A stretch of DNA of 64,000 nucleotides from Cyanidioschyzon merolae (Eukaryota): assembly GCA_000091205.1 (NCBI GenBank), contig AP006486.2. The stretch is one strand, 5' to 3'. Shown here piece by piece: positions 15,849-62,080 of the stretch. Position numbers and translations under genes: made by a program. Below the pieces are notes generated by a model. The model did no database searches and was not told where the DNA came from. It worked only from the letters and a program-made list of their open reading frames with translations. The first letter of the stretch is position 1. The number at the start of each line of letters is the position of its first letter.

Positions 15849-16799
15849 CGCAAAGCCCGCCTATTTGCTCCAAGACTGAGCGTTTCGTTGTGCGGTGGAG
15901 CCACGGAATCCAACATTTCTATTTGTTCGCTTGTACACGGACATGATAAGTACGATTTACACACACCAGCGCTATGCAACAAGCGAGGCATTCGCATACG
16001 AACGATGTCCAGTATATCGGTCTAAACATCGAAAGATACTCGGTTCGGAGGATATTTAGCGGATGCAGTATGCAACGGTGCACCGCACGAGCGCAGCACA
16101 AGGTCCAGCCATTTCATATGTTTGCGCCGATGTTCCGCTTGAGTCACCAAGGAAAGGAACACCTGGTTTATTCGTGAGCCACTCGGTTGACCACTTACCA
16201 CAGCACGCTTCCTCGGCCGCAGACAGGCAAGCGATCTCGGGTATCGATGCGACTTGCTGAAGACAAAGTCGACCACTTGAATAGGTCCAAACCAGCCAGC
16301 TGCGGAGAGACTGGTCGGTCCCGTTCAGCCAGGCTTTCTTTGCGTGAGTTTCTGAGGTACACCCCACGCCCACCCTACACTGTTGAAGCTATTTGGCATA
16401 ACTTGAGCGTCCCAGTTGGACAGCAGAACACCAATAGACACGCGAAATTGAACCACGGCCGGCCGGGTCTCTGTCACGGAAGCTTGACGCGGTGACTGCG
16501 CTGGGTCTCCTATGAGGAACCGGTCGGACGACCACGAGCGATCCGTTCCACGATAGCACCGTCTGCCAGGACGTCAACAGCTAAGCGAAGCGTGCGCACG
16601 AGCGCATCCAGTCTCTCGTCGAAGCGCTCTAGCTGGGCTTCGAGCACCCGCAGCGCTACCACTGTGCGCTGGTACGCCGCTGCCGCCTGCCGTAGACACT
16701 CCGTTTCTCGTTGTAGCTGCTTCTCCCAACTGGCAGGCGATCCCTCCGTCGTCGACGTCTCCGCTGCCATGGAGAACACGCACACACCGACAACGAATG

Positions 16800-23125: not shown

Positions 23126-23194
23126 AGCAACGTTTTTCTTTCGAAAGGCGTTCGCTAGCAGCCTTCGATGATGCGTTCTTCGGGAACAGCTGCG

Positions 23195-23880
23195 TTTTTT
23201 TTTCTGATGAAAAAATGGTTAGATTCACTATGGATCCCAGAATTCGGAATGGATAATGGCTTTCGGGAAAGCGTCCACGATGAAGCGCCTACCTTCAAGT
23301 TCTATCACGCATACTTCCTCTCGGATATACTGGTCGTTTCGTATATTCTATCGTGCGCCGAGCCTGCCGTGAACACCCGCCGTAGCGCTTATACCACTGA
23401 AGCAGATGCCACACGGAGACAGAACGGCTTTGCCATACCACTGAAGGCATCGACTCGAGGCGTGGTTCCTCCGACGTGGGGTCGGAGTACATAATATATC
23501 TGGGAGCCTGTAAGCTGCGCAGACAGACGCACTGCCTGTGGCAGCGCGGAGCGATCTACAAGGAGTCCACTGTGACCACGGAGACGCCCAGACGCAGCAT
23601 CCTGCTCCAAGTCCCCGAATGAAATGCGTTGCGGACGAGTTGTGCAGGTATCGCCACAAAACCTGCCATTGGAGGAAGCATGAAGCACTAGCTAGCCCCG
23701 AAGACTCGTCCGGCTCGCGGGACCTTCCGCCTAGAAGGTAAAGTTTCGAAGATGCGGAAACTTTCCCCCTTTTCCATGAGTCATATCAAGGTCGAAAGAA
23801 ACTGTTATCGAGTTGCTAGTCAGTTGTTAGTTTCTGTTCTTTCGTCTCTAGGAGAAAGCTCGCTGCTCACGGTCGGGCAC
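23195..23880 (-). mobile_element. SINE-like non-autonomous retroposon, copy A (about 0.68 kb) with A-rich tail
   Basis: Collinear (about 85% identity by eye) with 29325..29990 and, in reverse, 49770..50455. The tail on the element strand is 'catcagaaaaaaa' (plus-strand T-run at 23203-23210). Confidence 0.5.
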
Positions 23881-29183: not shown

Positions 29184-29324
29184 GTCACCCTGCAGCTGAA
29201 AGCACAGGCGAAACGGCGCTTTCCTGAACCGCTACCAGCCACGTAGATACAGCACTTTGAGCATTGAAAAAGTAAGGCTGCGGGCGCCTGCCGCAGTGCC
29301 GGTGCGCTGGCTCTGTTATCCCTT

Positions 29325-29990
29325 TTTTTCGATGACGAAACGTTTATATGGACCGTGGATCCCAGATTGCTGAATCCATACAGGCTTTCGGGAATGTTTC
29401 CATTATGCAGGGCAATACTCCCAAGTTCCGTCACGTATACTTCCTTTCGGATATACTGGTCGTGTTGTACATGCTATCGTTCACAGAGTACCCGCTGTGA
29501 GCGCTCGCCGTAGCGCCTTTACCGCTGGTGCGGATGAAGCGCGGAGACGGAACGGCGTTGGTATGCCCATAGACATGTAGGCTCGAGGCATGGTGCACCT
29601 GATACGGTGTCGGAGTACGTAGTAATTCTGGGAGCCTGCAAACTGCGTAGACAGACCTACTGCCTGCGGTACCGGGAGGCGATAAACTAGGAGTCCACCG
29701 CGACCGGGGTGATATCCAGATGCAGCTTAACTGCCCCTAGTCCTGGAATAAACTGCACTGCGGACGAGTTGCTCAGATCTCACTGAGGCACGAGGCACAG
29801 TGGGGAGCAAGAAGCGCAAGCGCGGCAAACTCGTCCGGCTCACGGGACCTTCCGCCTGGAAGGTAAACTAGCGATAATACGGAAACCTTTTCCCCTTTTA
29901 CCGTCTACGTTAGAGAGGGAAAGAAATCGCTATCTCGTTCCTAGTTCGTGGTTCGTCTCTGTTCTCTTTTCTATCCCACATCAATCTATG
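29325..29990 (-). mobile_element. SINE-like retroposon, copy B
   Basis: Homologous to copy A over its full length ('ggatcccagattgctgaatcc...', 'gtccggctcacgggaccttccgcctggaaggtaaac...'). A-rich tail on the element strand (plus-strand 'ccttttttt' at 29325-29333). Confidence 0.5.
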
Positions 29991-33734: not shown

Positions 33735-34545
33735 ACAGAGCAGTCTGCATCCGGGCCAGAAAAGGCATACGCATCCCAGCCTGCAGTGTCGTGCATTTCC
33801 GATAATCCGAATTACACATAGAGCAGTCTGCATCCCGACCAGAAAAGGCATACGCATCCCAGCCTGCAGTGTCGTGCATTTCCGATAATCCGAATTACAC
33901 ATAGAGCAGTCTGCATCCGGGCCAGAAAAGGCATACGCATCCCAGCCTGCAGTGTCGTGCATTTCCGATAATCCGAATTACACATAGAGCAGTCTGCATC
34001 CCGACCAGAAAAGGCATACGCATCCCAGCCTGCAGTGTCGTGCATTTCCGATAATCCGAATTACACATAGAGCAGTCTGCATCCGGGCCAGAAAAGGCAT
34101 ACGCATCCCAGCCTGCAGTGTCGTGCATTTCCGATAATCCGAATTACACATAGAGCAGTCTGCATCCCGACCAGAAAAGGCATACGCATCCCAGCCGGCA
34201 GTGTCGTGCATTTCCGATAATCCGAATTACACATAGAGCAGTCTGCATCCCGACCAGAAAAGGCATACGCATCCCAGCCTGCAGTGTCGTGCATTTCCGA
34301 TAATCCGAATTACACATAGAGCAGTCTGCATCCCGACCAGAAAAGGCATACGCATCCCAGCCTGCAGTGTCGTGCATTTCCGATAATCCGAATTACACAT
34401 AGAGCAGTCTGCATCCGGGCCAGAAAAAGCATACGCATCCCAGCCTGCAGTGTCGTGCTTTTCCGATAATCCGAATTACACATAGAGCAGTCTGCATCCG
34501 GGCCAGAAAAAGCATACACATCCCAGCCTGCAGTGTCGTGCATTT
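33735..34545. repeat. 83-bp tandem satellite, about 10 units, two alternating variants
   Basis: Unit 'cagtctgcatcc[g/c]g[g/a]ccagaaaaggcatacgcatcccagcctgcagtgtcgtgcatttccgataatccgaattacacatagag' repeats with an exact 83-bp period (ORF starts at 33812, 33895, 33978, 34061, 34144 all 83 bp apart). The array generates the chained 77-aa 'MHDTAGWDAYAFSG...' artefact ORFs. Confidence 0.9.
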
Positions 34546-34699: not shown

Positions 34700-35464
34700 T
34701 TGGAGTCGTCGTTGATGTCGACCTCTCCGATCCTTTTGAAACTGGTCATCCTGGGTGACTCTGGAGTAGGCAAGACTTCGTGTCTGGAGCGTTTCGTTAA
34801 TCGACGCTTCTCGCTGCAGTACAAGGCCACCATCGGAGCCGATTTTTTAACGAAAGAACTGGAACTTTTTGACGATAGCCCCTGCGACGAAGGCGTCACT
34901 GCTCCCAAAGAAAAAACAGGAACGTCGGAGCCTGGAGGCGCTGGTGTAGCGACTTGCGAGTTCAGCACCGAAGCGTGCGGAAGAAGACGGCAAGTGTGTC
35001 TGCAAATCTGGGATACGGCCGGACAAGAACGATACCAGTCACTTGGTGCTGCATTCTATCGTGGTGCAGACGGTTGCGCCCTCATGTTCGACTTTAGCGA
35101 GGCCAGTTCGCTCGCGAGTGTAACGTCGTGGCGCGAAGAGTTTCTGTTGCTAGCGGCACCACCAGCTGCGTCTACGTTTCCATTTGTGCTTCTGGGAAAC
35201 AAGGTCGACCTTGTGCGCTCCCAAACATCGGTATACGAAGCCACTCGCGAGCATGCGCTTTCGTGGTGTGCCGCTCATCACGCGATACCATTTTTTGAGA
35301 CCAGCGCTCTCGAGAATACGGGCATTGACCGAGCCATGACGACGCTGGCGCGAACAGCGCTTCTCTATCACGAACAGGTGCACAAAGCAGCCGGCTATGA
35401 ACCAGATGCCATTCTCGATTCCCTGCAAAACAACCGGGCGGCAGCGAATAACTGCGCGTGTTAG
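34700..35464 (+). CDS. Rab7-type small GTPase (Ypt7-like) with C-terminal CXC prenylation motif
   Basis: Collinear with Rab7 across all G-boxes: '[15 protein letters not shown]', '[14 protein letters not shown]', '[30 protein letters not shown]', 'LLGNKVDL', 'FFETSALEN'. Ends '...NNCAC' + TAG. Carries a roughly 37-aa insertion between the switch I region and 'WDTAGQ'. Confidence 0.85.
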   Translation: [254 protein letters not shown]

Positions 35465-48391: not shown

Positions 48392-49769
48392 GGCTTAGTT
48401 CAGCTTGAACGCCATCATGGTGGGTTTTCCCAGGGCGCAAGGGCCCACGAGCGCAAGGAACGGGAGGTACACAAGGGAGGACACGGACGCGGTGGCGCCC
48501 CTGGCAGCCTCGACGAGGAGATTTCTCGTGTTCTGAAAAAGAGTGGAGGAAAAGCTGAGGAGGCGCTGCGAATTGCACAGGAAGACGAAGAACCGTACGC
48601 GGAAGGAGAAGCTGAGGACGATGCTGAGGATGCGCACGCCGCAGAAGCCACAGGCACGGAGCCACTTGAGAACGGGTCCCTGGACGCTTCCGCACCGAGC
48701 AGTGCAACACCGGGGGAGAGCGTGCCGTAGAGACTATCGGACGTGTAGTTGGTCGGTGTCGCTGCGCCGGGAGTGTTCGTCGCGTTAGGAATGTTGGGGG
48801 AGTCTTGAGCTGCAACAGCAAAACGAGTCACTCGGGAGGTCTCAGTTCTGGTCGCGGGTCGACTGCGAGTGCTATTGAGAGCTCTGCACGTAAGTGTCAA
48901 ACATGTTCCGGAAACGGGCCAGTGGGACGACTTTTGCAACTCCTGGGCTTTGCGGTGTCTAGTATAGCGTTGTTTTCGGAACGGTCTCGAGACAGAAAGG
49001 GTTCGGCAATTCTAGTAGCAACAACCTGAATTGGACATACTGGACACGAGGCTGGCGCTCGCGGTTAACTGTTCGGAACATACGAATAGAAGAACAGTAA
49101 ACAATCTTTTACGAGTTGAGTGCGTTTCCCGGGCTATTGATGTAGCTCTCGAAATGATTGAAACGTCAGAGCACAGCATATATACTTGAGCGAGAGCCGC
49201 GCCCGCCGAGGATCCTCCGTGGATTCGAGGCCCTCCCATGAGATGCTTCAAGCGCTGAGACGTTGGCGAGACGCGGCGGCCGTGTGTAGAAATGATTCAC
49301 TAGGGAGCTTTCCAGGTCATTTTCATCATCGACAAAGAGGTTCGGAACGTTTTATGCTCAGAGTTTTTCCCGATTATCATGTCAGGGTCATGAATGGTTG
49401 TTCGCGGAAACTGTCTCGCCAGCAGGCGCGAAGATGACCTGAGAGACGAGCGTTGCAGCACGCCGAAGACTACTGGAGCCAATCTTCGACCGGTTCTCAT
49501 CACGTCGATGACTGTGCATGAACACATCTGGAATTCTGTAGCAGCGCAGTGCTTTCATGCGTTTCTGACGACGGAACCAAGAGGGCAACATCAGTAAAGG
49601 ATCTGTCGAAACTACAGGCCCGCGTCACGCTCGATGCTCTGCATATTTCGATATGTGGCATGGAGTCCATGCATCCCAATGCAAGTCCATTGATTGGTCG
49701 ACTCCGTATCTGATGCTTTTGTGGGAATATGCAAGTGGCATCCGTGCAAAACCTCCGGAACTGGAGCGG

Positions 49770-50455
49770 GTTGAGTGTGAAATTGCACCTAGGGTGCTGA
49801 CAAGCGACAAGCGCGGCATCGACGACTGCGAGAAAGAACTGAAACGAACCACTGACTAGCAGCTCGATAACAGTTTCTTTCGACCTTGATAGCAATCGAT
49901 GAAATCGGGAAAAGTTTCCGAATCTTCGAAAGTTTATCTTCCAGACGGAAGGTCCAGCGGTCCGGACGAGTCTGCGGGGCTAGTGCTTCATGCTTCCTCC
50001 AGTGCAAGGTGCTATGGCGAGACCTGCGTAGCTCGTCTGCAACACAAGCAATCGGGAAGTAGGGAAAGGAAGCCGCGCCTGGGCGTCGCCCTTGTCGCAG
50101 TGGACTCCTGGTAGATCGGTTCGCCCTGGCGCGGGCTCCCAGAACGATGATGTACTCCGACCCCGTGTCGGATGAGCCCTGCCTCGAGACGACGCCCTCA
50201 GTGGTCTTGCAAAGCCGCTACGTCTCAGTGCAGCATCTGCTTCAGCAGTATATCAGCGCTACGGAAGGTGCTCGCGGCAGGTACTCGGCGCAGGATAGAA
50301 CATACGAAACGACCAGTATATCCGAGACCAAGTATGCGTTATGGAACTTGGAGGTAGATGCCTTATGGCGGACGATTCCCCGGGAGCCATTATCGATTTC
50401 GAGTTCTGGGATCCATGGTCAATTGTCCACGGATTGTCATCGAAAAAAGAAATCG
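49770..50455 (+). mobile_element. SINE-like retroposon, copy C (plus orientation)
   Basis: The reverse complement of 49790-49900 matches the 5' region of copies A and B ('atcaaggtcgaaagaaactgttatcgag.tgctagtcagt'). The 3' end is '...gagttctgggatccatggtcaattgtccacggattgtcatcgaaaaaagaaa'. Confidence 0.5.
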
Positions 50456-50591
50456 ACCGCTGTGATCGAAGCGCTCGGGCCGAGGCGAGGCGCGATCTCG
50501 AATGCGGCGCGATCCAAGCGCTATGAGTATATATATAAATTTAGACGGTTGCATCGCCACCGGCATGGCGCGGTGTGCGCCAAGCAGAGAT

Positions 50592-50704
50592 CCAGTGATA
50601 GCTCACTCGCTTCCCATGCGAGGCTACGAGTTGGTAGAGCATTCGGCTGTAGTGGTACTTTGCATCTACCGAAGGGTCCCTGGTTCGAGTCCGGGTCACT
50701 GGAA
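50592..50704 (+). tRNA. tRNA-Tyr(GUA) gene with a canonical 15-nt intron and an additional 23-24-nt insertion in the D-loop; possibly a pseudogene
   Basis: Hand-folded: acceptor 'ccagtga'/'tcactgg' (7 of 7 pairs); 'ta'; D-stem 'gctc'..'gagc' with D-loop '...agttggta' preceded by an extra 'ctcgcttcccatgcgaggctacg'; anticodon stem 'ttcgg'/'ccgaa'; loop 'ctGTAg' (U33, anticodon GUA, purine 37); intron 'tggtactttgcatct' 1 nt 3' of the anticodon; variable loop 'gggtc'; T-arm 'cctgg ttcgagt ccggg'; discriminator A. A pol III terminator 'ttttttt' follows at 50707-50713. The architecture is near-identical to known tRNA-Tyr genes (…TAGCTCAGTTGGTAGAGC…CTGTAG[intron]…GGTTCGA.TCC…). Confidence 0.55.
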
Positions 50705-51389
50705 GATTTTTTTCGAAACTTGAGAATCTCGGGATCTGCTCGAAACCACTGCCTAGGTAAGTCATTTTCTGAATCGGGACTCTGCAGCAACTAGCCGATC
50801 CCCGAAAAATTTACAATTCTTGTTCGCAGCCTGCGCAAGGATACTTGCGTCCCGGCAGACGCTTGTCCCTTCCGCAAGCTCCAACGAGAGTGCCTGGAGG
50901 AATCATGTTACAGTCCGTCAAACATTCTAGGATCACCGGGTGCCGGGCATTTGGATAGTGCAAGGCCGCTGGATGCGTCTTTGCGAATTCTGTACACTCA
51001 CAGAATGGCTTCGCGTTTTGTTGATTCGTATCATATCCAGGCGCACAGTACGACACATGTGAGGAACGTGGACACAAGGCCGGAACCTGTGGAAAGAACG
51101 AATTTCCCGCGACTCCTGGGAGAATCTGCGCGGCATAAGAACAGCTTTGATTTCGCCGCACCACCAACCAGATGAGGACACACGGAGCAGTTGGCCGGCA
51201 GGTTTGTCCCGATCGCCGGATCTTCTTACAATGTAAACTTGGAGACTCGACAAAAAACCTTGCCCCCATTATGCGCTGCAATATATTAGAACAGGAGCCG
51301 TTCGCTAATTGCTCAACCGCGGTCTGTATTCGTTTATCCTGAATAACGATTCATTGGTTCCGGCACACACCTCGAAAGGAGGCACCGCC

Positions 51390-54145
51390 GCCTCCAAACA
51401 CCTCTCGAAAGTTCAACGACGTCACCGTTGTACAGTAGTGGCGAGTGACCCGCCCTAGACAAGAAGTCTCCGACTGCTATGCAGACGCCTCCGCGTCTTT
51501 CTCGACCGGCCAACTACTACTGCATCCAACTTTTTCTCATATACTTCGACTTTGAGAGGCTGTCCAACTATGTTCTCTCTTGTCGACTCTGGAGGTGTTT
51601 CCTCCAGCACTGCACATCGCCTTGTATTGATAGCGGCGATAAAGTACCGGCCCACAAACTCCATCCGTTTCGTGCCCCCGTTGGTTGTACTTACTAGCGT
51701 GAGTAGTCCACGAACTTTCGCTCTCCTTTCCACTTCCTCCTCCGTCAGCGGTCCGTACTTTGCTATTTCCTCAGGGCTCCTCTGGCAATTTTCCATTTCG
51801 ACCCTCTGAAGTGTGCACCCTAGCTCGTGTTGTGTGTAGGAGGTTCGGAACAGATCTATCGGTTTTGCAACGAAAAGCCTTGCGCACTCCTTGAACACCC
51901 TCGTCGTTGGAGCTGGCTTAGTGCCTTTCTTGGGCGCCCAGCGCCCTGCTCTGTATGCTGCTACTAGCCTCTGATTTTCACCCTCGTTCAAGGCGCTCAA
52001 CTGATTGAAAAAATTCGCGAACGCTCGCTACTTACCACAATACAGATTCATTCGCAAACGAGTCCATCGGGGCTTTATATACTCCTCCCACACCGCATCC
52101 CAATGCACAATGCGAACTTCCATGAATATTCCGAAAAGATTCAAAGTCCGCTCCACGGCTCGTCACCTTGCTCATAGCTTCCAGGTGCTTCTTCAGTCCA
52201 GCATTCATATCTCGATTTTCTTCCACTCATTCAATATACCGGATTCTCGATAGTATGTCGCTCTCGAGAACCTCAAAAGGCGCATATCGTTCTGACGAAA
52301 GTAACCGTCAGTAACATCTTCCGCGCGCTTGGGTACAGCGATGGTTACGATATTTGTGTTTCCGGTGTCCCCGCCAACGAAAAAGTCGATATCTTGCACT
52401 TTCTGCGTCACAGGATCCACCTCCTTCTTCTCTTCATGCTTCGCCGCGCCAACCATAACGTGGTTATCCTGCACTTTCTGTGTGGCAGGATCCGCCTACC
52501 TCTCATCTTCATCCTTCACCGCGCCAACGACAAGGTCGTTATCCTGCACGTTCTGTGTCGCAGGTTCCGCCCCCTTCTCATCTTGATCCTTCACCGCGTC
52601 AACAACAAGTTCGTTATTCTCCACCTCCTGCGTTGCAGGATCAGACTCCCCCTTTTCTTCATCCTTCGTGACGGGCGCAGCCGAGGGAGGGACTGGCCGA
52701 TCTTTCTTCAACCACCGATAGTGTACAGACATGGCTACTCCATCGGTTTCGATCATCCCTGTGAATACCTTTTATTTGCTGACTTTCACACGTTTGAAAT
52801 CGAAGATATTCTTCCACAAAGGCTCCCGGATTTCACCGGTGAGGTCCTCCCTGTTAACATTGAACTCCGGACTGATCTCCCTCATGATGCCGTAAAGGAC
52901 GCCTGAATCGATAGTCACAAAATGTGACTTGATGTTGCTCATTAGAACCACGTTGAAGCGCTTCCCCATTAGGACAGCCTTCCGTCTCTCCCATTCTTCA
53001 TTTCTTCCTCAAACAGCTTCATCTCCGCCTTCCGCTCGAGCTCCCGGTCCAGAAACACAAAATACCGCATTATGAGATAATAGTATCTTTCCTTATCTTT
53101 TTTCGACTCTGATATCATATCTCTTGGATTCGCCAACCACAGTACCGCACGTTGCTCTTGTCTAGCCGCACGGATCGCAGAAGCTTCGTTCGCGCTCTCG
53201 TTTACGCCTTCTCTCTGACAAATTCGACCTCATCTTCACGCTTGCGATCTTTCGTGATGGCCTTGATAGTCGCCCGTTTTCCATTGCGAGATAGGCCCGG
53301 GTAGAGTGCAACCACGGCACGTAACATAAAACGTTCGAGGTTCACTGTCAAATGGTCCTTCAGATTCGTGGGGTACTTCATGGGCCCATATGAGTGAACA
53401 TCCCGGTAACCCCAGTATCGAGTACCACTGAAGCTGTAAAAGGGATGTTTTTCGTGGAGGGCATGCACCCGCTCATTTTCCTTCCGAGCTTCCTCTGTGC
53501 CAAGCATCAGCTGACTAACAAAGGTCTTGTCGAAAAAATCTTTCGGAATCTCTACCGTTTCCATGTGGGTCACGTCGCGATCCATCTCCCTCGGCAAATG
53601 CATCAGTCCTGACAACGCGTTGACAATACTCTTGGAGTAAGAGGCCACATGTTTTTCGATAGCGTCTCGCAACTTACCCTGTAGGGATCCTTGATATGTC
53701 CAAGAAGGAAGGTTTTCACCACCTTCTCGTTGTAAAGTCGACTTTCTTGCCGCCTTCGATGTAGGGCCTCCTGCTTTCGGTTCTTCAGCTCTTCCTTTTC
53801 TTCAGGACTCGGCACTGCTTTTTGTTCTTTTCTGGCAGCCGGCGACCTTGGACCTCCAGGATCGTGGGCTTGCTTTTTCATAAATTTCCTTTTCTTGTTT
53901 TTTAAAGATAACGCTCTTTGAACGCTTCTGTTAGATACTGCGCAAAACACTTGACTAGACTTGTTTGAAGCTTGAAACGAAAATGAACAGAAACACTGTA
54001 CTTTGCTAGGACCTGAACGGAAATTTAACTTTTTTCCAGCTGAACAACACGCTAGAGATCATAATCACGTTTCCCTTCAACAGCGGCACGCGCGTCGTGT
54101 CTCATGTCTGTCTGATCTCCGAGGTGCACTCACCGAGCGCGATGC
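51390..54145 (-). mobile_element. TnpB/Fanzor-like element, copy 3 (diverged, nuclease-dead)
   Basis: Minus-strand ORFs 53603..53950 (NLS-like 'KNKKRKFMKKQAHDPGGP...'), 53202..53672, 52496..52756, 52205..52474 (RuvC-I '[17 protein letters not shown]') and 51455..52000 (zinc finger 'TSYTQHELGCTLQRVEMENCQ'). It reads through the position that is TAG in copies 1 and 2, but the RuvC-III motif has degenerated to 'GRYFIAAINT' (Asp->Tyr, tac at 51644-51646). 5' and 3' terminal blocks are homologous to copy 1. Confidence 0.65.
51455..53950 (-). pseudogene. Fanzor/TnpB-like nuclease gene, frameshifted and catalytically degenerate
   Basis: At least two frame changes relative to copy 1 (for example 'DPYRVSCETLSKNMW' versus copy 1 'DPYREKLRDAIENSV') and the RuvC-III D->Y substitution. 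Extra internal ATQ.V.DN.[LF]VV[DG]A repeats. Confidence 0.6.
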
Positions 54146-54837
54146 CTGCACCGCGCGAGACGCCTCAGCGATCGATGAAGGACACGTGTTCGACAACCCG
54201 CCTTGGCACATGCTTGTACGCATCGCACTGCAGCTGAAATAAACTATCGTAGATCGGAAATTGACGTAGAACGATCTCCTGCTATAGACTCTGTCGCTGG
54301 TGCCGACGCTACTGCCCATCGCAGTACCGCCCCGACATACAAGGGGCTGTTGGGGCCTGACACAAAACCCCTCGACGCTTCTATCAAAAGCGTAGCGTTC
54401 TCTGCAGCTTCCGCTTGTGTGGATGAGTTGTGCATCAATCTTCTCGTTAGGAATTTCATTTGTTTTATTGATCGTAACCAAACAAGGTAAGGTAGTATTC
54501 CTGGACTCGTATATGCGTCTGTTCGTGATGCTTGTTATGCATGCCGCACGGACGCTGCAATGAGGAAATGACCTGAATTGTGCTTCGATCTTGCGTCATA
54601 CGCTGGTACTGATGGCAGTTCAAGCCATTTGCATGCTATCGTCTTTGTCCAAGTTATGGTGCTTGCTACTCTCCCGGATCCGGTGATCTTGGTAGAGGCA
54701 TCGCATACATAGAGTGTCTATACTTAGCATTCCATTTGACCGACGCATCCGCCAAAAGCACATACTGTATTCTGATCTACTCTATAAGATTAGTTTCAAG
54801 AGCCTAACCCGAACATCGAGCCCGGAAGCGACAAAGC

Positions 54838-54950
54838 GAACAACGAATGCCTTTGAGAAAAACGCTGCCGCCCGCGGTGTACAATAGTGCCGAATGACCT
54901 GCCCTAGACATGAAGTCTCCAACTGACGTGCAGACGTTTGCAAAAAATAC
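54838..54950 (-). repeat. Solo 3'-terminal fragment of the Fanzor-like element (no ORF attached)
   Basis: 'acaacgaatgcctttgagaaaaacgctgccgcccgcggtgtacaatagtgccgaatgacctgccctagacatgaagtctccaactgacgtgcagacg' aligns with the 3' boundary block of copy 1 (16785-16890) and copy 3 (51400-51480), then diverges. Confidence 0.55.
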
Positions 54951-55527
54951 AGAGCACCGTAGGAAATTTCCTTATGCCTCCTCTACGGTATTCGTCGGAG
55001 AGCTGTGGTGAAGTCCATTTACGATCGTTGTGATTTCTGAGCGCAGCACTGCGGAACCCTTGGCACTACGTACTGGTGAAGTTGTTGTTCGAAATGGTCT
55101 GAGTTCTGCCTAGTTTCTGAAAAGGCATTGAGCGCTTGTGCTAGTTGCGCTGAACGCTAGACAATCTACGGGAGATTTAGCTCGGACTCTGGACAATTGA
55201 CGGGCGATCACTCGTGCCGCTACGCAAAAGAGGTTTTTGACTGGATACGCACACTTACGCGATCGATTCTAGCCGATGACGTGATCGGCAGCTTTCGCAC
55301 CGGAGACGACCTAACCCGAGAAAGTACAAGGCATGTTTGTCTCTGATCCGCTGTACCGGGGCTAAAGAGTAGTTCGCTCACCTGCTGTAAGTAGAGCACC
55401 GTTTCCGCTGGGTACCGAACATGACAGGTGCTTCACAGCTGGACATCGTCACCACTGCCAGCGTCCGCTTCCTTTGGTAATGCAGCGTTCGCCTGTAGCG
55501 CGCCGGCATCGTATGCTGCATCTTCGT

Positions 55528-56535
55528 ATGGGCCCGAAACAGTCGCAGATCGCCGTGGTCACTGGCGCGTCCTCTGGGGTCGGTCTGTATGCAGCTCACG
55601 CTCTGATCAACAAGGGCAACTGGCACATCGTCATGGCATGTCGTGACGTCGACCGGGCGGAGCGCGCAGCAAACAGCGTAAACCTTCCAAAGGACGCCTA
55701 TACAGTGCTGCATTGTGATCTGGCTGATTTCGCCTCTGTACTAAAGTTTGTGAAAGGGCTATCGAGTGTGGCGCGCGTCGATCACCTGGATGCCCTGATC
55801 TGCAATGCCGCAATCTGGCATCCGCGGGTCAAGAAACCGCGTTTCACGGTGGACGGCATCGAGAAAACCATGCAGGTATGCCATCTGAGCCATTTGCTTC
55901 TATGTCGGGAGCTGTTGCCGAAGCTGAAAATATCGCGCGGGCGCATTGTGTTTCTGACGACTCAGACACACTCGCCGGATTCGCTGCCGGGAAAGATCCC
56001 CCCGCAGGCTCGTCTCGGGGATTTATCTGGTCTAGCCGCGGGGCTTGATCCGCAGACGACGGACATGGTAGAAAGTGGCCCGTTTCAGCCCACAAAAGCT
56101 TTCAAAGACGCCAAAGCCGAGAACGTGTTGACAATGAAGGCGCTCAGTGATCGATACGGCCGCGACGGGGTGACCTCTGTGGCGATTTTCCCGGGATGTG
56201 TCGCCGAAAGCAACCTCTTCCGCGAAAAGCGTGGCTGGTTCCGGTACGTATTCTTCCCGATTCTTCAGAAGTATATCACTCGGCAATACGTTCCGAATGA
56301 TGAGGCCGGCCGCCGTGTAGCCGAAGTGGCGACCCAGGGACAGTTCTCGGACGCGGGCTCGTATTGTCAGTGGCGTGGCAAATATACGGAAGGTCGAGAG
56401 AAGACGAAATCGCAGGTTATTGAACCAACGTACGAAATCGACAAGGCAGATCAGCTATACGAACTGAGTCTTGATCTGATCGACCAGGCGTTACGGAGGC
56501 GAGGCCTCAAGTCGACTATCTTGGCCCCTGTCTAA
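55528..56535 (+). CDS. Short-chain dehydrogenase strongly resembling light-dependent protochlorophyllide oxidoreductase (LPOR-like), catalytic Tyr replaced by Phe
   Basis: The ORF spans 55474..56535; the likely start is 55528 ('MGPKQSQIAVVTGASSGVGLYAAHALINKGNWHIVMACRDVDRAERAA'). It is collinear with LPOR: 'ITGASSGLGLATAKAL..G.WHVIMACRD..KAERAA', 'LD.L.CNAA.Y.PTAKEP.FT..G.E..VG.NHLGHFLL', 'GDLRGLAGGL', 'YPGCIA.T.LFREH...F...FP.FQKYIT.GYVSE.EAG.R.A.VV'. The YKDSK catalytic motif reads 'AFKDAK' here (ttc at about 56113). Confidence 0.75.
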   Translation: MGPKQSQIAVVTGASSGVGLYAAHALINKGNWHIVMACRDVDRAERAANSVNLPKDAYTVLHCDLADFASVLKFVKGLSSVARVDHLDALICNAAIWHPRVKKPRFTVDGIEKTMQVCHLSHLLLCRELLPKLKISRGRIVFLTTQTHSPDSLPGKIPPQARLGDLSGLAAGLDPQTTDMVESGPFQPTKAFKDAKAENVLTMKALSDRYGRDGVTSVAIFPGCVAESNLFREKRGWFRYVFFPILQKYITRQYVPNDEAGRRVAEVATQGQFSDAGSYCQWRGKYTEGREKTKSQVIEPTYEIDKADQLYELSLDLIDQALRRRGLKSTILAPV

Positions 56536-59323
56536 GGTTTGTTAGTGATGAAAATGAGATGCGGCTTCGGAGCACAGACCGCTGCTTCTAGAACAGATGT
56601 AAGAGCAACAGCGTAACGATGAGACGACACCCCACTGTCACAATCGGATATTGAACGGATGGGTGGGCACTCCTCCTGATGTAGAGAACCAAAATTGCTT
56701 CGCGAGTCATGAAGCGTACTGCAATAGTGATTAATATAGCTATAGCTATGACCTACTTCGCATCGAATGCGCCAGAGTATGCTAAAATCGGTCGTCCGTG
56801 AGTGTAGAGCATATGTGCGGCCACTGCAGATAGCGTATCCGCTATGGAGTGTACGCGAAAGCGTTCAGAATTAGGGACATTTATTGTTGAATCTCATCGT
56901 GTGACCTGGTACTGAATATGAAATGCATCCGATTCTTTTTCTCCGGCCGTGAGACAGATGCATGGAATCAGGATTTTCCTGGTCCCTAGGAGCTGCCTGG
57001 GGACAGGGGATGCTATGAGTGCCCTCTTCCGAATTTGAATGGATTCTACGAGTTTCAGAGCGGTCTCTCATGTTATATTAGTGGGTCGTACCTTCCGGGC
57101 AGTGCGCTAGGACATGTCATTAGTCTGCGACAGCCGAGCGACAGCCATCGAGTGGCGGGCTAGAAGAAGCTAGATTACTACGGCACGGTGCTGACCAACA
57201 CAGCCTTCCCCGTGTGTACTGGGAAAGCGGTGCCGAAGAGGAGCAACGTAGGTCGTGTTTGAACACCGCCACTACGGGGAGGAAACGGGATGTACGATCT
57301 CCACAGATTTTACCCTTTCGAGGCAGATTCTGCCAAGAAGGCGAATCGTCAAATTGAAGGATGATTTCGGCTTTCAACTTCTACTCTGGGGGATTAATTG
57401 CGAATATCTAGTTGCGAGCATGTATTTAGCTTCTGTTTTCTTTTTTCTTTGGATACAGTAGGGCAAGCAGGTGAACCACGCAAGCAGCCCGCATGTTAGA
57501 TTGCGAAAAATATTGCAGAAGCGGGATCGTAGCATGAAGAAGCTCTAAACTCCAGATTGCGCCTTCGCATGCGAGAACATCCAAATAAACTCCGATGAAG
57601 CCGTAGCAGCGAGCCATCGAACACAGAACAATGCGAGAGGCCCAAGGAATGGATCATGGCTCCGCTCACTGACAGAGCCGGTGATCGTGCCTCCCGCGAA
57701 TCATTGGACAAAAGAGAACAAGGAATCCAGGGCAATATGTCTGGGGAGAGCGTTCAAGAAAAAAGGATATGTACTGGGCAATGTGCTGTATGAAAAGCAC
57801 ATTGCGAGACAGGTGCTGGCATCATTGCCTGAGCACGGTTGAAGTTCGACATAGAATTTGTCCGTAGACTTGGTCGCCAAGTCTCGCTGTTTGCTCGATA
57901 ACTATGCGGAGATTTTCGTGGATCCTGCTGGGAAGACTGTCGGATCGCCAAAGGTGTATATGGTACTTATAAATTGCCCGCTACTCAACTAAACAGTTAC
58001 GGAACGACGCCTCTGGGAATACAATTGTTCATGATGCTAGGCACCGTCTTGAAAAAGCAGCTACACATTCAGCGACTCTGATCAAGCAGGCAAACATGAT
58101 CTGATTTCAGTTCTCGAGCCCCCAGACGTTGGACCATTGTCTTGGCTGCTGCCAAAAGACCAATTCAGACTAGAGCATTTTCAAAGTTCAACAAGTTCCC
58201 ACTCCGAAATGCGAGCATGGATATTCATTGGTGTCATGACGCCCTTGGCGGGTTACGGATCGAGGCCGACATTCATGTAGACAGTGTCATCTGAAGCAAC
58301 AGAGCTCTCTTTCCGGGGCGGGGATGTAAACATACACTCCACGGAGGATTTTTCGGTATATTGGATGAAACGTGAGGAAGTCTCCGATTGTGAAAGTATT
58401 CTACGCGGATCATTGGTCTGCGCCAGCCCTGCAAATGCATGGTGATGCAAGGCTTGCCAGCGGCAGTTGAAATACATGCTCAAAGCTTACGCCGAATACG
58501 GTTAGATGAAGAAGTGACTTACGAGTTCCCACTTCGTGGGTTGATAGCTGAAGCATGGGTACGGACATGTGCGGGTGTTTTCGAGCAACGAGGCAGGGTC
58601 CCGAATCAGAGACCACATTCCTCGCGAGCAATATTGTTTAGTTTTCCTCGCAATAGAAATATTGGAGCTCACTAGTTAATGTTTCTTATCTAAGACAAAT
58701 ACCAATGGTACAGACCTACATAAACCTCCCAACTACTCAGCTTGGCTATCACCACGAGAACAGGACTGCAACACAATAAGTCTAACACGGAATATTTCCA
58801 CTACAATCGTCTTCCTAAAATATAAAATAGAAAATACGCCTTAGAGATTCATCTGCCTTTCAGGTGGAAGACGAACCTCAGCAACCGATAGTTCGTTATT
58901 CGCTATCCTTCTTACCCCAAGCCATAGTCTGTTGAGCCCTGCTGACTCGCACCTGGAAGGAGCAGTACTCGGGAGTTACTCATTCCAATGAAATCCCACT
59001 AGCCTATATATAGCTTTCAGTACCTCTCTCAACTTGGATATTTCGGACTATGAACCCCGAAATCCCTACGTCCGTTACGCTCCAGTCTCGACATCAACGT
59101 GAATTCTTCATCGCATCATGATGACTCCAATTCAAATTCCTCTGCAGTGCGCGCGCGCGTTTCGCGTTTTTGGCGCTATCACGTTGTGCGTTGTTGTATT
59201 GGCTTTCACAACACACGGCGGTTACGTTCGTGTTGACCATATCGAAAAAACAATAGTGAAGATATATTCACGCAAGAAAGAACAAATATCCGTATTTATT
59301 GGACTGAGAGAGCGTCGAACGAG

Positions 59324-62080
59324 ATGTTTCGAGCTCGCTCTCTGGCGCGTGGCCTGGGAGTTGCTGGTTGTCTATTGTTGGCGGCGACGTTTTCCGTGTC
59401 GGTTGTAGCTGCGTTGTCGCCTGTGAGTACGGTTAGCTGGACCTGGATAGGTGGAGAGACGGGCACAGGTAAGTATGGAAAGTATGGAACGTTGAACGAG
59501 ACGTCTCCAGAGAGTGTCCCTGGTGGACGTCAAAATCCAGCAGCCTGGGTCGGAAGTTCGAGCTTGGTATACTTGTTTGGCGGGTTTGGGAATGGAAACA
59601 CAACAGGGGGCTACCTCAACGATTTTTGGAGCTTCAACCTCACATCACTCGAGTGGATGTGGATAGGCGGCTCTTCAGACGTCAACAAACAAGGAGTATA
59701 TGGCACACTCGGCATAAGCAGCCCAGCCAATATACCTGGCAGTCGTTATGCAAGCGCATATTGGCAGGCGGACGAGCAGCACTTCTGGTTGTTTGGTGGT
59801 TTCGGCTCTGATGTGAACGGTAATGAGGGCGAACTGAACGATATGTGGCGGTACGATACTGAAACGGGAATCTGGACGTGGTTCAGTGGGAATGATACTA
59901 TTAACGCCAATCCAGTCTATGGACCGAAGGATATCTACAGTCAAATTTACAACCCCGGAGGCCGATATAGCGCGGCATTCTGGCTAGGCACGGACGGTCT
60001 GTTTTGGATTTTTGGTGGTGTGGGTATTGCGGGGGATTTTCTGTCAGATCTTTGGTCATTCAACCCTGTGACATTCGTATGGGCATACAGAGGCGGATCA
60101 CAACTTGTTAACCAGCCCGGTAACTATAGCGCACCTGGCGTGGCGAGCAACTCAAATGCCCCAGGTGCGCGCGGCGCCTCGTATACATGGACAGATTTTG
60201 AAGGAAATCTCTGGTTGTTCGGTGGCGCTGGCTACGGAAACAGCACAGCACGAGGACCAGGGGACTTGAATGATCTCTGGGTCTACAACATAAGCCAATC
60301 CGTATGGATTTTTATCACAGGGAATACCACTATTAGTAATCCAGGATCGTATGGAACTCTCGGTGCTTTCTCCCCAACCAGTTACCCAGGTGCAAGAGAC
60401 TCAGGCGTGAGTTTTGTGGATTCTTTTGGTAATCTACAGCTGTTTGGCGGTGAGGGATTCGCTAATACAAGCGAATCCTTTGGCAATTTGAACGATCTTT
60501 GGGTATTTGATATCACGCTTGGTCAGTGGGCGTGGATCAATGGCAGCCAAAGTGCGGATGCTCTTTCAGTATATGGAGTTTTGAACGAGTCCAGCTCGAG
60601 TGTTGTACCTGGCGGTCGCTATGGACCAGCTTTCTGGAATACAAGTGGGACCGATCCGATCCTATTTGGCGGATTTGGATACTCAAACACTAGCAGACCT
60701 GGCTATCTCAATGATGTTTTCGCACTGCGTGAAACGTTCTTTACGCCTACCTCTACGCCTACGCCAACATCAACGCCAACTGCTACATCGACCCCAACAT
60801 TCTCGGCAACCGCTTCATCTACGGCTACATCTACGATAACAGCAACCGTAACCTCGACGTTCACACTGACGCCAACGCCTACATCTACTCCGGTGTGCAC
60901 CAATGAGATCTGCGGTTCCCCGGGACAGTACACGAACCAGGACGCTTGCGAGCAAGTCGGATGCTGCTTCAACGCCCAGACGAACGCGTGCACCCTGAAG
61001 AGCGTCGCAGCGGCGTGCAGCGCTGTTCCAGTGACACAGCGCGTCCCCTGCGGCTGGAGCTACATCTATCCCGACGAGTGCACTGCGATACCGGGATGCT
61101 GCTGGCAGCCCACAGCGAACGGCATCCTCGCGCCCTGGTGCTACTACGACATCGACCATGCACCCCAGGCTTCTGTAGCGCTACAGGAGGTGCAGGCACC
61201 GGTTCCCGTCTGCCCGTCACCGGGAGCGCAGCGGCAGCCGTGCGGCAACGCGGGTATCAACCAGTTTACCTGCTATGAACAGGGCTGCTGCTACGACTCG
61301 CAGGCGCAGAACCAGTGGGTGCAGAACGGCAAGCAGCAGAGTGACTTTACGTCGAACCCGTACTGCTTCCAGCCCGAGAAGACGTGCGCGGTGGGTGAGT
61401 TTGAGCGCCAGCCGTGCACGAACGCGGTGAATCAGAACCAGCAGCTGACCAACAATAACATCAACAATAACCAGTTTGTGCGTCTGCTGAACACGCTGCT
61501 GTACGGAGAGCAGCACGGGACGCAGCGCACGAGCTACGCGCCGCAGCAGTGTCTGGAGGCTGGTTGCTGCCTGGGGCTCGGCAACGAGTGCTTCCAGCCG
61601 GTAACCGAGTACGTGTGCCAGACCTACGGGTATGTGTCGAACTCGCTGAGCGGCACGACCGGCAACGTATCGAACTCGAGCTATATTCCGTGTGGCCCGG
61701 AGTGCTGCAACGCCGAGACGCAGAACTGCACGTACATCCCGTTCAGCAACAACAATAACCAGCAGCAGCAGCAGCTGCAACTGCAGCAACAGCAGCAGCA
61801 ACAACAGGTGCTGCTGCCGTCGTTCTGTGTGTGCAAGGACCCTACAAAGCAGTGCGGGACGTACCTGATCCCTTCGGATAACCTTGTGAACAAGATGCGT
61901 TGCTGCCGCGCTGACGAGGAGTGCATCAACAACCAGTGTGTCGTGATTAGTTCAACACCGACTCCGAGTCCCGTGGCTGCGACAGCGACACCCTCTGCGA
62001 CGGTGTCTGCGACAGCTTCTGCGGCGGTGTCTGCGAGTGCGTCAACATCGGTTTCGGGTTCAGCTTCAGTTTCTGCTTGA
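59324..62080 (+). CDS. Secreted mucin-like protein: signal peptide + Kelch-type beta-propeller + Thr/Pro linker + multiple trefoil(P-type)-like Cys modules + Ser/Thr/Ala-rich C-terminus
   Basis: N-terminal 'MFRARSLARGLGVAGCLLLAATFSVSVVA' (signal-peptide-like). Six to seven repeats of 'W.W[IF].G....N..YG' and 'GGR...A.W......[LW][LI]FGG' (Kelch/galactose-oxidase-type blades). 'TPTSTPTPTSTPTATSTPT...' linker at about 60740-60900. Modules such as 'CSAVPVTQRVPCGWSYIYPDECTAIPGCCWQP' and 'CPSPGAQRQPCGNAGINQFTCYEQGCCYD' follow the trefoil pattern C-x-R-x-C-G...C...GCC[WFY]. A poly-Q/N tract and a C-terminal 'SATVSATASAAVSASASTSVSGSASVSA' tract are also present. Confidence 0.8.
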   Translation: MFRARSLARGLGVAGCLLLAATFSVSVVAALSPVSTVSWTWIGGETGTGKYGKYGTLNETSPESVPGGRQNPAAWVGSSSLVYLFGGFGNGNTTGGYLNDFWSFNLTSLEWMWIGGSSDVNKQGVYGTLGISSPANIPGSRYASAYWQADEQHFWLFGGFGSDVNGNEGELNDMWRYDTETGIWTWFSGNDTINANPVYGPKDIYSQIYNPGGRYSAAFWLGTDGLFWIFGGVGIAGDFLSDLWSFNPVTFVWAYRGGSQLVNQPGNYSAPGVASNSNAPGARGASYTWTDFEGNLWLFGGAGYGNSTARGPGDLNDLWVYNISQSVWIFITGNTTISNPGSYGTLGAFSPTSYPGARDSGVSFVDSFGNLQLFGGEGFANTSESFGNLNDLWVFDITLGQWAWINGSQSADALSVYGVLNESSSSVVPGGRYGPAFWNTSGTDPILFGGFGYSNTSRPGYLNDVFALRETFFTPTSTPTPTSTPTATSTPTFSATASSTATSTITATVTSTFTLTPTPTSTPVCTNEICGSPGQYTNQDACEQVGCCFNAQTNACTLKSVAAACSAVPVTQRVPCGWSYIYPDECTAIPGCCWQPTANGILAPWCYYDIDHAPQASVALQEVQAPVPVCPSPGAQRQPCGNAGINQFTCYEQGCCYDSQAQNQWVQNGKQQSDFTSNPYCFQPEKTCAVGEFERQPCTNAVNQNQQLTNNNINNNQFVRLLNTLLYGEQHGTQRTSYAPQQCLEAGCCLGLGNECFQPVTEYVCQTYGYVSNSLSGTTGNVSNSSYIPCGPECCNAETQNCTYIPFSNNNNQQQQQLQLQQQQQQQQVLLPSFCVCKDPTKQCGTYLIPSDNLVNKMRCCRADEECINNQCVVISSTPTPSPVAATATPSATVSATASAAVSASASTSVSGSASVSA

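What the first reader, a model, noticed from the sequence alone, without database searches (positions are those of the whole stretch)
55528..56535. LPOR-like dehydrogenase with catalytic Tyr->Phe substitution
The protein is collinear with light-dependent protochlorophyllide oxidoreductase from the GASSGLG NADPH loop through the C-terminus. The alignment includes the LPOR-specific insertion region ('GDLSGLAAGLDPQTTDMVESGPF' compared with LPOR 'GDLRGLAGGLNG...MIDGG.F'). The SDR catalytic YxxxK motif reads 'FKDAK' (Phe at about 56113). In LPOR and SDRs generally the Tyr is the proton donor, so this protein is predicted to bind NADPH but not perform classical SDR catalysis. If the host is non-photosynthetic, retention of an LPOR-like fold would be notable in its own right.
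Basis: partly seen in the sequence, partly recalled or inferred. Interest (0 to 1): 0.6.

Follow-up and report, generated by a model that had tools for sequence, protein, structure and literature searches.

The report
Decaying subtelomeric copy of chlorophyll enzyme
This is a third, already annotated copy of the light-dependent chlorophyll-synthesis enzyme LPOR at a chromosome end of the red alga Cyanidioschyzon merolae; it has lost its chloroplast-targeting leader and its catalytic tyrosine and is most likely a gene on its way to becoming a pseudogene, so it is ordinary rather than a new kind of enzyme.

Summary
ORF 55474-56535(+) is collinear with LPOR (TIGR01289 E 1e-89; solved LPORs E 1e-72). 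Its YxxxK motif reads FKDAK, with Phe codon TTC at 56101-56103.

The host is photosynthetic. The window is the right end of chromosome 4 of Cyanidioschyzon merolae 10D. The ORF from ATG 55480 is the annotated protein BAM79241.1, 'NADPH:protochlorophyllide oxidoreductase'.

The gene lies in a published subtelomeric 'POR,KT' element. Strain 10D also has two 403-aa intact paralogues, on chromosomes 7 and 14. Both keep the Tyr and a roughly 68-aa leader.

In the window copy:
- The ancestral start codon is GTG.
- An in-frame TAA at 55363-55365 cuts off the leader.
- Protein change is 14-15 residues against 0-4 in the intact paralogues.
- dN/dS against the family consensus is 0.39, against 0.02 for a functional copy.
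- Replacements hit positions invariant in 102 LPORs.

The Phe belongs to a haplotype shared with environmental copies that all carry premature stops. The locus is a recombination mosaic.

Best reading: a decaying, non-functional or crippled subtelomeric paralogue. Interest is low. The only new point is that this 'intact' POR annotation is doubtful.

The parts
55480..56535 (+). CDS as annotated in C. merolae 10D (351 aa, BAM79241.1 / XP_005535527.1, 'NADPH:protochlorophyllide oxidoreductase').
   Evidence: An exact-sequence look-up finds this product on the 513,455-bp chromosome.
55528..56535 (+). Region homologous to the mature LPOR domain (335 codons plus stop). It has no stop or frameshift.
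   Evidence: Searches give the LPOR matches. Given 33 random substitutions, the probability of no stop is 0.35, so the open frame alone is not informative.
55324..55527 (+). Remnant of the roughly 68-codon plastid-leader coding region, in frame with the mature part. The ancestral ATG is now GTG (55324-55326). A new ATG sits at codon 4 (55333). This region is far more diverged from the functional copy (dS 0.37, dN 0.23) than the mature part is.
   Evidence: Searches give the sequence and translation. One search gives the alignment to the 403-codon reference. One search gives the divergence.
55363..55365 (+). In-frame TAA at codon 14 of the ancestral reading frame. It cuts the leader off from the enzyme domain.
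   Evidence: The same stop occurs in metagenome copies L037 (99.8% identical here) and L012, so it is not a sequencing error.
56101..56103 (+). TTC, Phe in place of the catalytic Tyr. The codon is TAC in functional copies, a single A-to-T change. It is codon 260 in the 403-codon numbering.
   Evidence: Tyr is present in 102 of 102 other LPORs.
56113..56115 (+). AAA, the conserved Lys of YxxxK, retained.
56017..56121 (+). Haplotype tract (codons 232-266) shared with broken 'F-type' copies. It carries synonymous markers at codons 232, 234 and 259 together with G242D, G247D, D250E, Y260F and A266E.
   Evidence: One search lists which loci share each change. Those loci all have premature stops.
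55828..55830 (+). D169V, a replacement unique to this copy. The other unique replacements are R144K, N219D, E255Q (56086-56088), S344A and Y348C (56365-56367). There are no unique synonymous changes.
49530..59300 (.). Multi-copy subtelomeric element around the gene, with a mosaic structure. 49.5-55.0 kb is 97-99.8% identical to L010 (95.8% in the last sliding window). 55.1-55.5 kb is 99-99.8% identical to L037. The CDS is a 95-97% patchwork. 56.7-58.7 kb is 97-99% identical to L021.
59324..62080 (+). Neighbouring Kelch + trefoil ('KT', trefoil factor) gene, the usual partner of POR in C. merolae subtelomeres. It is probably CMD191C.
   Evidence: Pfam finds Kelch and Trefoil domains. The translation shows a signal-peptide-like N-terminus. 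Cho 2023 Suppl. Dataset 5 lists chromosome 4 end 499384-513437 as 'POR,KT' and names 'Chr04_CMD191CT-KT'.

Best explanation
The feature is the chromosome-4 right-end subtelomeric paralogue of the light-dependent protochlorophyllide oxidoreductase (POR/LPOR) gene of Cyanidioschyzon merolae 10D.

POR genes in this alga sit in duplicated elements next to the telomeres. These elements recombine with each other and leave many dead copies.

This copy is still an open 335-351-codon frame, but it no longer works as LPOR:
- The ancestral start codon is lost and a stop at codon 14 removes the plastid leader. Any product would start at an internal Met and probably stay outside the plastid, away from protochlorophyllide (inferred).
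- The Tyr that polarises and protonates the C17-C18 bond is Phe. In cyanobacterial POR this change abolishes the hydride-transfer intermediate while leaving binding intact (shown for Y193F, inferred here).
- The sequence has been drifting under relaxed constraint (shown).

Chlorophyll synthesis is carried by the intact 403-aa paralogues on chromosomes 7 and 14 (inferred from their intact sequences and from the absence of plastid chlL/N/B).

The Phe arrived as part of a sequence tract shared with overt pseudogene copies, most likely by ectopic gene conversion (inferred from the mosaic).
For: Identity of the locus:
- Four window proteins are exact C. merolae 10D chromosome-4 proteins.
- The 351-aa product is BAM79241.1.

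Subtelomeric context:
- Nozaki 2007 places POR (P) and trefoil factor (T) genes in homologous elements next to the telomeres (PMC1955436).
- Cho 2023 Suppl. Dataset 5 lists chromosome 4 end 499384-513437 as 'POR,KT'.
- The same dataset marks pseudogenised <P> at ten other chromosome ends.

Lesions:
- The start codon is GTG and there is a TAA at codon 14.

Relaxed constraint:
- Against the family consensus the functional copy has Sd 19 and Nd 1 (omega 0.02).
- The window has Sd 15 and Nd 18 (omega 0.39).
- That lies inside the 0.23-0.77 range of the other metagenome copies, most of which carry stops or frameshifts.
- The window-unique changes are 6 non-synonymous and 0 synonymous. P is 1e-8 to 6e-5 if omega is 0.02-0.1, and 0.13 if neutral.
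- In the relative-rate test the window has 14-15 unique residues against 0-4 in the intact paralogues, p = 0.0002-0.01.
- Replacements fall at sites invariant or nearly so in 102 LPORs: Y260F, D250E, E255Q, S344A, Y348C and A266E.

The Phe haplotype:
- Every other F-type copy has premature stops.

Intact paralogues:
- P0132 and P0133 differ from each other at only 4 of 335 residues and keep Tyr and the leader.

Effect of the substitution:
- Y193F POR binds substrates but shows no hydride-transfer intermediate (PMC4531822).
Against: - The 335-codon mature region has no stop or frameshift. This is only weak evidence, because the chance of that after 33 random substitutions is 0.35.
- An internal Met (MGPKQ) conserved in all family members, and the ATG at 55480, could start translation.
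- Omega of 0.39 is below 1, so part of the divergence accrued under selection or was imported from functional copies by conversion.
- The genome annotation and Cho 2023 both treat this copy as an intact POR gene.
- No expression or protein data could be examined here.
- The other chromosome ends of 10D could not be read with these tools. The recombination partners shown are therefore environmental relatives, not 10D's own copies.
Confidence: 0.75

Rival explanations
1. A working but weakened LPOR isoform. It is translated from ATG 55480 or 55528, imported through the short Arg-rich N-terminus (MQRSPVARRHRMLHLR), and still reduces Pchlide slowly, with the proton supplied by water or another residue.
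For: - The mature frame is open, and the NADPH loop, the Lys, the PGC cysteine and the LPOR insertion are all retained.
- It is annotated as POR and listed without pseudogene brackets by Cho 2023.
Against: - The 68-aa leader with the N-terminal 'FVS' motif seen in the intact copies and other red-algal LPORs is cut off.
- Y193F POR shows no hydride-transfer intermediate.
- Constraint is relaxed and invariant residues are replaced.
- Two intact paralogues make it dispensable.
Confidence: 0.1
2. A neofunctionalised, non-catalytic paralogue: a cytosolic NADPH- or tetrapyrrole-binding protein (sensor, chaperone or scaffold) that exploits the binding-competent but inactive Tyr-to-Phe state.
For: - Y193F POR still forms the ternary complex.
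- The frame is open.
- The Phe haplotype recurs in several copies.
- Subtelomeres are known places of gene diversification (PMC9812998, PMC5405695).
Against: - All other carriers of the Phe haplotype are broken by stops, so the haplotype is not being preserved.
- The window-unique changes look neutral, not directed.
- No orthologous Phe-type intact gene was found in Cyanidiococcus or other red algae.
Confidence: 0.07
3. A sequencing or assembly artefact: a single A-to-T error turning TAC into TTC, or a chimeric assembly of repeats.
For: The locus lies in a repeated region that is hard to assemble. The CDS has no near-identical partner among the fetched loci.
Against: - The Phe codon with linked synonymous markers recurs in five independent metagenome contigs and two protein clusters.
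- The codon-14 stop recurs in L037 and L012.
- The 10D genome was finished to 100% by Sanger sequencing of all ends (PMC1955436).
Confidence: 0.02

Closest known systems
C. merolae 10D intact POR paralogues: BAM79708.1 (chromosome 7 right end, P0133) and BAM81403.1 (chromosome 14 right end, 'chloroplast precursor', P0132)
   Same: - They belong to the same gene family and the same kind of subtelomeric element.
- They are 94-95% identical over the mature 335 residues (17-21 differences).
- They share the Cyanidiales-specific features, such as KDAKAAN instead of KDSKVCN.
   Different: - The intact copies are 403 aa with a roughly 68-aa leader (MQALFVSVPLYQER...).
- They have Tyr in YKDAK.
- They differ from each other at only 4 residues.
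- The window copy lacks the leader, has Phe, and has 14-15 private replacements.
Pseudogenised POR copies (<P>) in C. merolae subtelomeres (Cho et al. 2023, Suppl. Dataset 5) and the broken environmental copies L006-L032
   Same: - They share the subtelomeric repeat context and the mosaic recombination.
- They show a similar omega against the family consensus (0.23-0.77 against 0.39).
- The window shares the Phe haplotype with L006, L007, L013, L022 and L027.
- The window shares the codon-14 stop with L012 and L037.
   Different: The window copy has no stop or frameshift inside the mature domain, so annotators call it a gene.
Canonical LPOR (TIGR01289; solved structures 6L1H, 6RNV, 7JK9)
   Same: - Full-length collinear SDR fold.
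- GASSG NADPH loop.
- LPOR insertion.
- Catalytic Lys.
- PGC cysteine.
   Different: - The catalytic Tyr is replaced.
- Several invariant residues are replaced.
- It scores 300.9 bits, under the curated cut-off of 331.35. The intact Cyanidiales LPORs also fall under it, at 300-315 bits.
Engineered Y193F POR of Thermosynechococcus elongatus (Heyes et al. 2015, PMC4531822)
   Same: The same residue change occurs at the same motif position.
   Different: That protein is a laboratory point mutant in an otherwise optimal enzyme. Here the change is one of many in a drifting copy.

Membership tests
LPOR (light-dependent protochlorophyllide oxidoreductase, TIGR01289 / EC 1.3.1.33) | End-to-end match to the LPOR profile above the curated cut-off. 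| tested here: inconclusive
   The match covers profile positions 2-312 of 315 at E 1.2e-89, but 300.9 bits is below the 331.35 cut-off. The intact Cyanidiales LPORs score 300-315 bits and also fall below it. The shortfall is therefore mostly a lineage effect. The window copy is about 10 bits lower than its paralogues.
LPOR (light-dependent protochlorophyllide oxidoreductase, TIGR01289 / EC 1.3.1.33) | N-terminal Gly-rich NADPH-binding loop (TGASSGxG) and the NAA motif. | tested here: met
   VTGASSGVGL and ICNAAIW align to solved LPORs.
LPOR (light-dependent protochlorophyllide oxidoreductase, TIGR01289 / EC 1.3.1.33) | LPOR-specific insertion of about 30 residues ahead of the YxxxK motif. | tested here: met
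   GDLSGLAAGLDPQTTDMVESGPF aligns with GDLRGLAGGLNG..MIDGGDF of Arabidopsis PORB.
LPOR (light-dependent protochlorophyllide oxidoreductase, TIGR01289 / EC 1.3.1.33) | Catalytic Tyr of YxxxK. | tested here: not met
   The residue is Phe (TTC at 56101-56103). Tyr is present in 102 of 102 other LPORs and in all intact Cyanidiales copies.
LPOR (light-dependent protochlorophyllide oxidoreductase, TIGR01289 / EC 1.3.1.33) | Catalytic Lys of YxxxK and the conserved active-site Cys (PGC). | tested here: met
   FKDAK keeps the Lys, and FPGCVA keeps the Cys.
LPOR (light-dependent protochlorophyllide oxidoreductase, TIGR01289 / EC 1.3.1.33) | Plastid targeting leader (nuclear-encoded algal and plant LPOR). 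| tested here: not met
   The ancestral ATG is now GTG and there is a TAA at codon 14. Only about 16 residues remain ahead of the mature domain in the annotated product. No targeting predictor was available.
LPOR (light-dependent protochlorophyllide oxidoreductase, TIGR01289 / EC 1.3.1.33) | Light-dependent Pchlide-to-Chlide activity. | not testable with these tools
   This needs a recombinant enzyme assay. Published Y193F data predict loss of photochemistry.
Subtelomeric duplicated POR/KT element of Cyanidioschyzon (Nozaki 2007; Cho 2023) | Position in the terminal 10-20 kb of a chromosome, next to a Kelch+trefoil gene. | tested here: met
   The window proteins are chromosome-4 proteins. The KT ORF is at 59324-62080. 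The literature gives chromosome 4 end 499384-513437 as 'POR,KT'. No telomere repeat lies inside the window, so the distance to the telomere is estimated, not read.
Subtelomeric duplicated POR/KT element of Cyanidioschyzon (Nozaki 2007; Cho 2023) | Homologous copies at other loci. | tested here: met
   34 metagenome loci share 76-99% identical DNA over window positions ~49.5-59.3 kb and 60.9-62.0 kb, most of them at contig ends. The other chromosome ends of 10D itself could not be fetched.
Pseudogene (unprocessed, duplicated) | Disabling lesion relative to the ancestral reading frame. | tested here: met
   Start-codon loss plus a stop at codon 14. There is no lesion in codons 69-403.
Pseudogene (unprocessed, duplicated) | Relaxed selective constraint compared with functional paralogues. 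| tested here: met
   Omega is 0.39 against 0.02. Unique changes are 6 non-synonymous and 0 synonymous. The relative-rate test gives p = 0.0002-0.01.
Pseudogene (unprocessed, duplicated) | No functional transcript or protein. | not testable with these tools
   No expression data were accessible. Published work reports H3K27me3 enrichment and repression at C. merolae subtelomeres in general (PMC5405695), but this gene was not found in the supplements held.

The most novel reading that the evidence does not exclude
The chromosome-4 copy is expressed from the internal Met as a leaderless, catalytically dead LPOR. It acts outside the plastid as an NADPH- or tetrapyrrole-binding protein, for example buffering or sensing protochlorophyllide or haem-pathway intermediates. 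That would be a natural 'Y193F' LPOR co-opted for a non-enzymatic role.
Probability: 0.06. Interest if true: 0.6.

Novelty: already known. Interest (0 to 1): 0.15.

Why it matters
It matters little beyond annotation hygiene. C. merolae 10D is usually credited with three POR genes (Hunsperger 2015; the genome annotation), and it has no plastid chlL/N/B. LPOR is therefore its only route to chlorophyll.

This analysis suggests that only two of the three are credible enzymes. That is relevant to anyone designing POR knockouts or counting chlorophyll-pathway genes in this model alga.

The locus is also a clean small example of how subtelomeric recombination spreads inactivating haplotypes between gene copies.

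Tried and rejected
- **Non-photosynthetic or stramenopile host.** Rejected: the window is C. merolae 10D chromosome 4.
- **Conserved synteny with the single-copy LPOR locus of a more distant Cyanidiales relative.** L001 has ABC transporter and DSPc genes upstream, and Hc1 and TPT genes downstream. None is shared with the window.
- **Exact look-ups of the 335-aa product, the KT product and the 10D paralogues in the contig index.** All returned nothing. One look-up was wasted on a mis-set minus-strand coordinate.
- **Telomere repeat AATGGGGGG x2.** Absent from the window and from all loci, so the distance to the telomere could not be read directly.
- **Literature searches by accession (M1UP90, BAM79241) and by CMD19x gene id.** Both found nothing. 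The supplements of the H3K27me3 paper do not mention POR.
- **The open reading frame as evidence of function.** Rejected as uninformative, because the probability of no stop by chance is 0.35.
- **Structure prediction and fold search.** Not run. At 45% identity to solved LPORs the fold is not in question.

Full report
**1. The observation**

The ORF 55474..56535(+) is present. From Met 55528 it encodes 335 residues.

- Pfam sees only a generic SDR N-terminal half (adh_short, E 4e-21).
- The NCBIfam equivalog model TIGR01289 (LPOR) matches end to end at E 1.2e-89 and 300.9 bits.
- The solved LPOR structures of Arabidopsis PORB, Thermosynechococcus and Synechocystis match at E 1e-72 to 1e-62 over residues 8-318. 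The match includes the LPOR-specific insertion.
- In these alignments 'KAYKDSK' of LPOR faces 'KAFKDAK'.
- The Phe codon is TTC at 56101-56103. The Lys codon of the motif is at 56113-56115.

**2. Whose gene it is**

The closest database relatives (71-95% identity) were unnamed metagenome proteins. The next group, at about 55% identity, were red-algal LPORs such as those of Chondrus and Gracilaria.

- Listing the members of the best cluster showed two 403-aa proteins of Cyanidioschyzon merolae 10D. BAM81403.1 is named 'chloroplast precursor' and lies on a chromosome of 852,727 bp. BAM79708.1 lies on a chromosome of 584,452 bp.
- The Cyanidiococcus orthologue also appeared in a neighbouring cluster.
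- Exact look-ups of four other window ORFs returned C. merolae 10D proteins BAM79229, BAM79230, BAM79233 and BAM79234. All are on the 513,455-bp chromosome.
- The ORF read from ATG 55480 (351 aa) is exactly BAM79241.1 / XP_005535527.1, annotated 'NADPH:protochlorophyllide oxidoreductase'.

The window is therefore the right arm end of chromosome 4 of a photosynthetic red alga, and the gene is already annotated as POR. The other window ORFs are ordinary eukaryotic genes, including glycogen phosphorylase, a Ras-family GTPase, a GATA factor and Nop14.

**3. Context: a known subtelomeric gene family**

- Nozaki et al. 2007 (PMC1955436) reported up to 20-kb homologous elements next to the telomeres of C. 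merolae. The gene content of these elements includes P (POR), T (trefoil factor), H (hedgehog) and L (LDH).
- Cho et al. 2023 (PMC9812998, Supplementary Dataset 5) list for Cyanidioschyzon 'chromosome 4 end, 499384-513437: POR,KT'.
- It lists '<P>' (defined there as pseudogenised) at 1E, 4S, 5S, 6S, 8S, 8E, 11S, 18S, 18E and 19E.
- In the window the POR ORF is followed by a 918-aa Kelch + trefoil ORF at 59324-62080, as that description requires.
- Hunsperger et al. 2015 (PMC4337275) count three por genes in C. merolae 10D and no plastid chlL/N/B.

**4. The locus is one copy of a recombining repeat**

A scan of metagenome contigs returned 34 loci with POR copies, most of them at contig ends.

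- DNA homology extends well beyond the gene, over window positions ~49.5-59.3 kb and 60.9-62.0 kb.
- A 400-bp sliding comparison shows a mosaic:
  - 49.5-55.0 kb is 97-99.8% identical to L010, falling to 95.8% in the last sliding window.
  - 55.1-55.5 kb, covering the promoter and leader, is 99-99.8% identical to L037 but only 83% to L010.
  - The mature CDS has no near-identical partner. It is best matched at 95-97% by different loci in turn.
  - 56.7-58.7 kb is 97-99% identical to L021.
- This pattern is what ectopic recombination and gene conversion between chromosome ends would produce.

**5. Lesions**

All copies were aligned to a functional 403-codon reference (L004 189-1400, which is P0001) and read in its frame.

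- Nearly every environmental copy has stops or frameshifts.
- In the window copy the ancestral start codon is GTG (55324-55326), codon 4 is ATG, and codon 14 is TAA (55363-55365).
- The upstream 68 codons are otherwise recognisably the leader of the intact proteins. Compare MQALFVSVPLYQER... with VQGMFVSDPLYRG*...
- The same stop is found in L037 and L012, so it is real.
- The leader region is much more diverged from the functional copy (dS 0.37, dN 0.23) than the mature part (dS 0.115, dN 0.025). This again points to a different origin for that segment.
- Codons 69-403 carry no stop or frameshift. Simulation shows that 33 random substitutions would leave the frame open 35% of the time.

**6. 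Constraint**

- Against the family consensus the functional reference has 19 synonymous and 1 non-synonymous differences (omega 0.02).
- The window copy has 15 synonymous and 18 non-synonymous differences (omega 0.39).
- That lies within the 0.23-0.77 range of the other metagenome copies, most of which carry stops or frameshifts.
- Changes found in no other copy are six non-synonymous (R144K, D169V, N219D, E255Q, S344A, Y348C) and zero synonymous.
- The probability of that split is 1e-8 to 6e-5 if omega is 0.02-0.1, and 0.13 under neutrality.
- In the mature domain the two intact 10D paralogues differ at 4 of 335 residues. The window copy differs from them at 17-21.
- With Cyanidiococcus or P0007 as outgroup, the window lineage has 14-15 private replacements against 0-4 for the intact copies (p = 0.0002-0.01).
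- The replaced sites include positions that are invariant or nearly so in 102 other LPORs:
  - Y260F: Tyr in 102 of 102.
  - D250E: Asp in 99 of 102.
  - E255Q: Glu in 97 of 102.
  - S344A: Ser in 98 of 102.
  - Y348C: aromatic in all (Trp in the 102 LPORs, Tyr in the Cyanidiales copies).
  - A266E: Cys in all 102, Ala in Cyanidiales.

**7. The Phe itself**

- TTC at codon 260 travels with synonymous markers at codons 232, 234 and 259, and with G242D, G247D, D250E and A266E.
- This haplotype is shared with L006, L007, L013, L022 and L027 and with protein clusters P0008 and P0136.
- Each of those copies has premature stops, and the stops are at different places.
- The Phe is therefore neither a sequencing error nor a private innovation. 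It is a marker of a dead or dying sub-lineage, and part of it has been pasted into the chromosome 4R copy.
- Experimentally, Y193F POR of T. elongatus still forms the Pchlide-NADPH ternary complex, but the hydride-transfer intermediate is not formed (PMC4531822).

**8. Mechanism**

Shown:
- LPOR ancestry.
- Subtelomeric repeat context.
- Loss of the start codon and an in-frame stop ahead of the enzyme domain.
- Tyr replaced by Phe.
- Relaxed constraint.
- Mosaic structure.
- Intact paralogues elsewhere in the genome.

Inferred:
- Any product would lack a plastid leader and so would not meet its substrate.
- It would be photochemically inactive.
- The chromosome 7 and 14 copies do the work.
- Gene conversion from pseudogene copies delivered the Phe tract.

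I put 0.75 on 'non-functional, decaying paralogue', 0.10 on 'weakened but working LPOR', 0.07 on 'non-catalytic new function' and 0.02 on artefact.

**9. Membership and novelty**

- The copy belongs to the LPOR family by descent.
- It fails two defining features of a working LPOR, the catalytic Tyr and the leader.
- Its sub-threshold TIGR01289 score is mostly a Cyanidiales lineage effect, because intact copies score 300-315 bits.
- The gene, its subtelomeric position, its KT neighbour and the existence of POR pseudogenes in this genome are all published.
- What appears not to have been noted in the papers searched is that this 'intact' third POR has a truncated leader and a dead active site.
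- This is an annotation refinement, not a discovery. Interest is 0.15.

Noticed in passing
window 16794-19337 and 20614-23154: This is a large inverted repeat with 2.5-kb arms at 97% identity and a spacer of about 1.3 kb. Each arm is about 80% identical to 51427-54146, the part of the subtelomeric element just upstream of the POR copy, and to the same part of many metagenome loci. An internal copy of subtelomeric-element sequence therefore lies about 30 kb inside the chromosome arm. ORFs in the arms (17609-18628(-), 21322-21987(+), 21997-22689(+)) have no Pfam hit.
   Followed up: partly
window 33737-34545: Tandem array of an 83-bp unit with 9.7 copies and 97% matches, just upstream of the Ras-family GTPase ORF at 34700-35464.
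   Followed up: no
window 59324-62080: A 918-aa Kelch + trefoil ORF. It has a signal-peptide-like N-terminus, Thr/Pro/Ser-rich linkers, several Cys-rich trefoil-like modules and a poly-Gln run. This exact product is not in the protein collection, although the literature names a chromosome-4 KT gene CMD191C. The annotated start or model may differ.
   Followed up: partly
window 23197-23843, 29323-29965 and 49832-50423: A dispersed repeat of about 620-650 bp in three copies at 66-77% identity, one of them inverted. One copy sits at the inner edge of the subtelomeric element.
   Followed up: no
L006-L039 (JGI samples Ga0078972, Ga0080006, Ga0207433, Ga0209012, Ga0123519): In environmental Cyanidioschyzon populations nearly all recovered POR copies are pseudogenes with different stops and frameshifts. 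They lie at contig ends. Some share lesions across loci (for example stops at codons 12, 14, 353/354 and 359), which suggests that lesions are spread by conversion between chromosome ends.
   Followed up: partly
window 50800-55300 and 56540-59300: The flanks of the POR copy contain only fragmentary ORFs of less than 200 aa, and G+C is lower here (0.48 at 52-54 kb). This contrasts with the compact gene-dense rest of the window.
   Followed up: no
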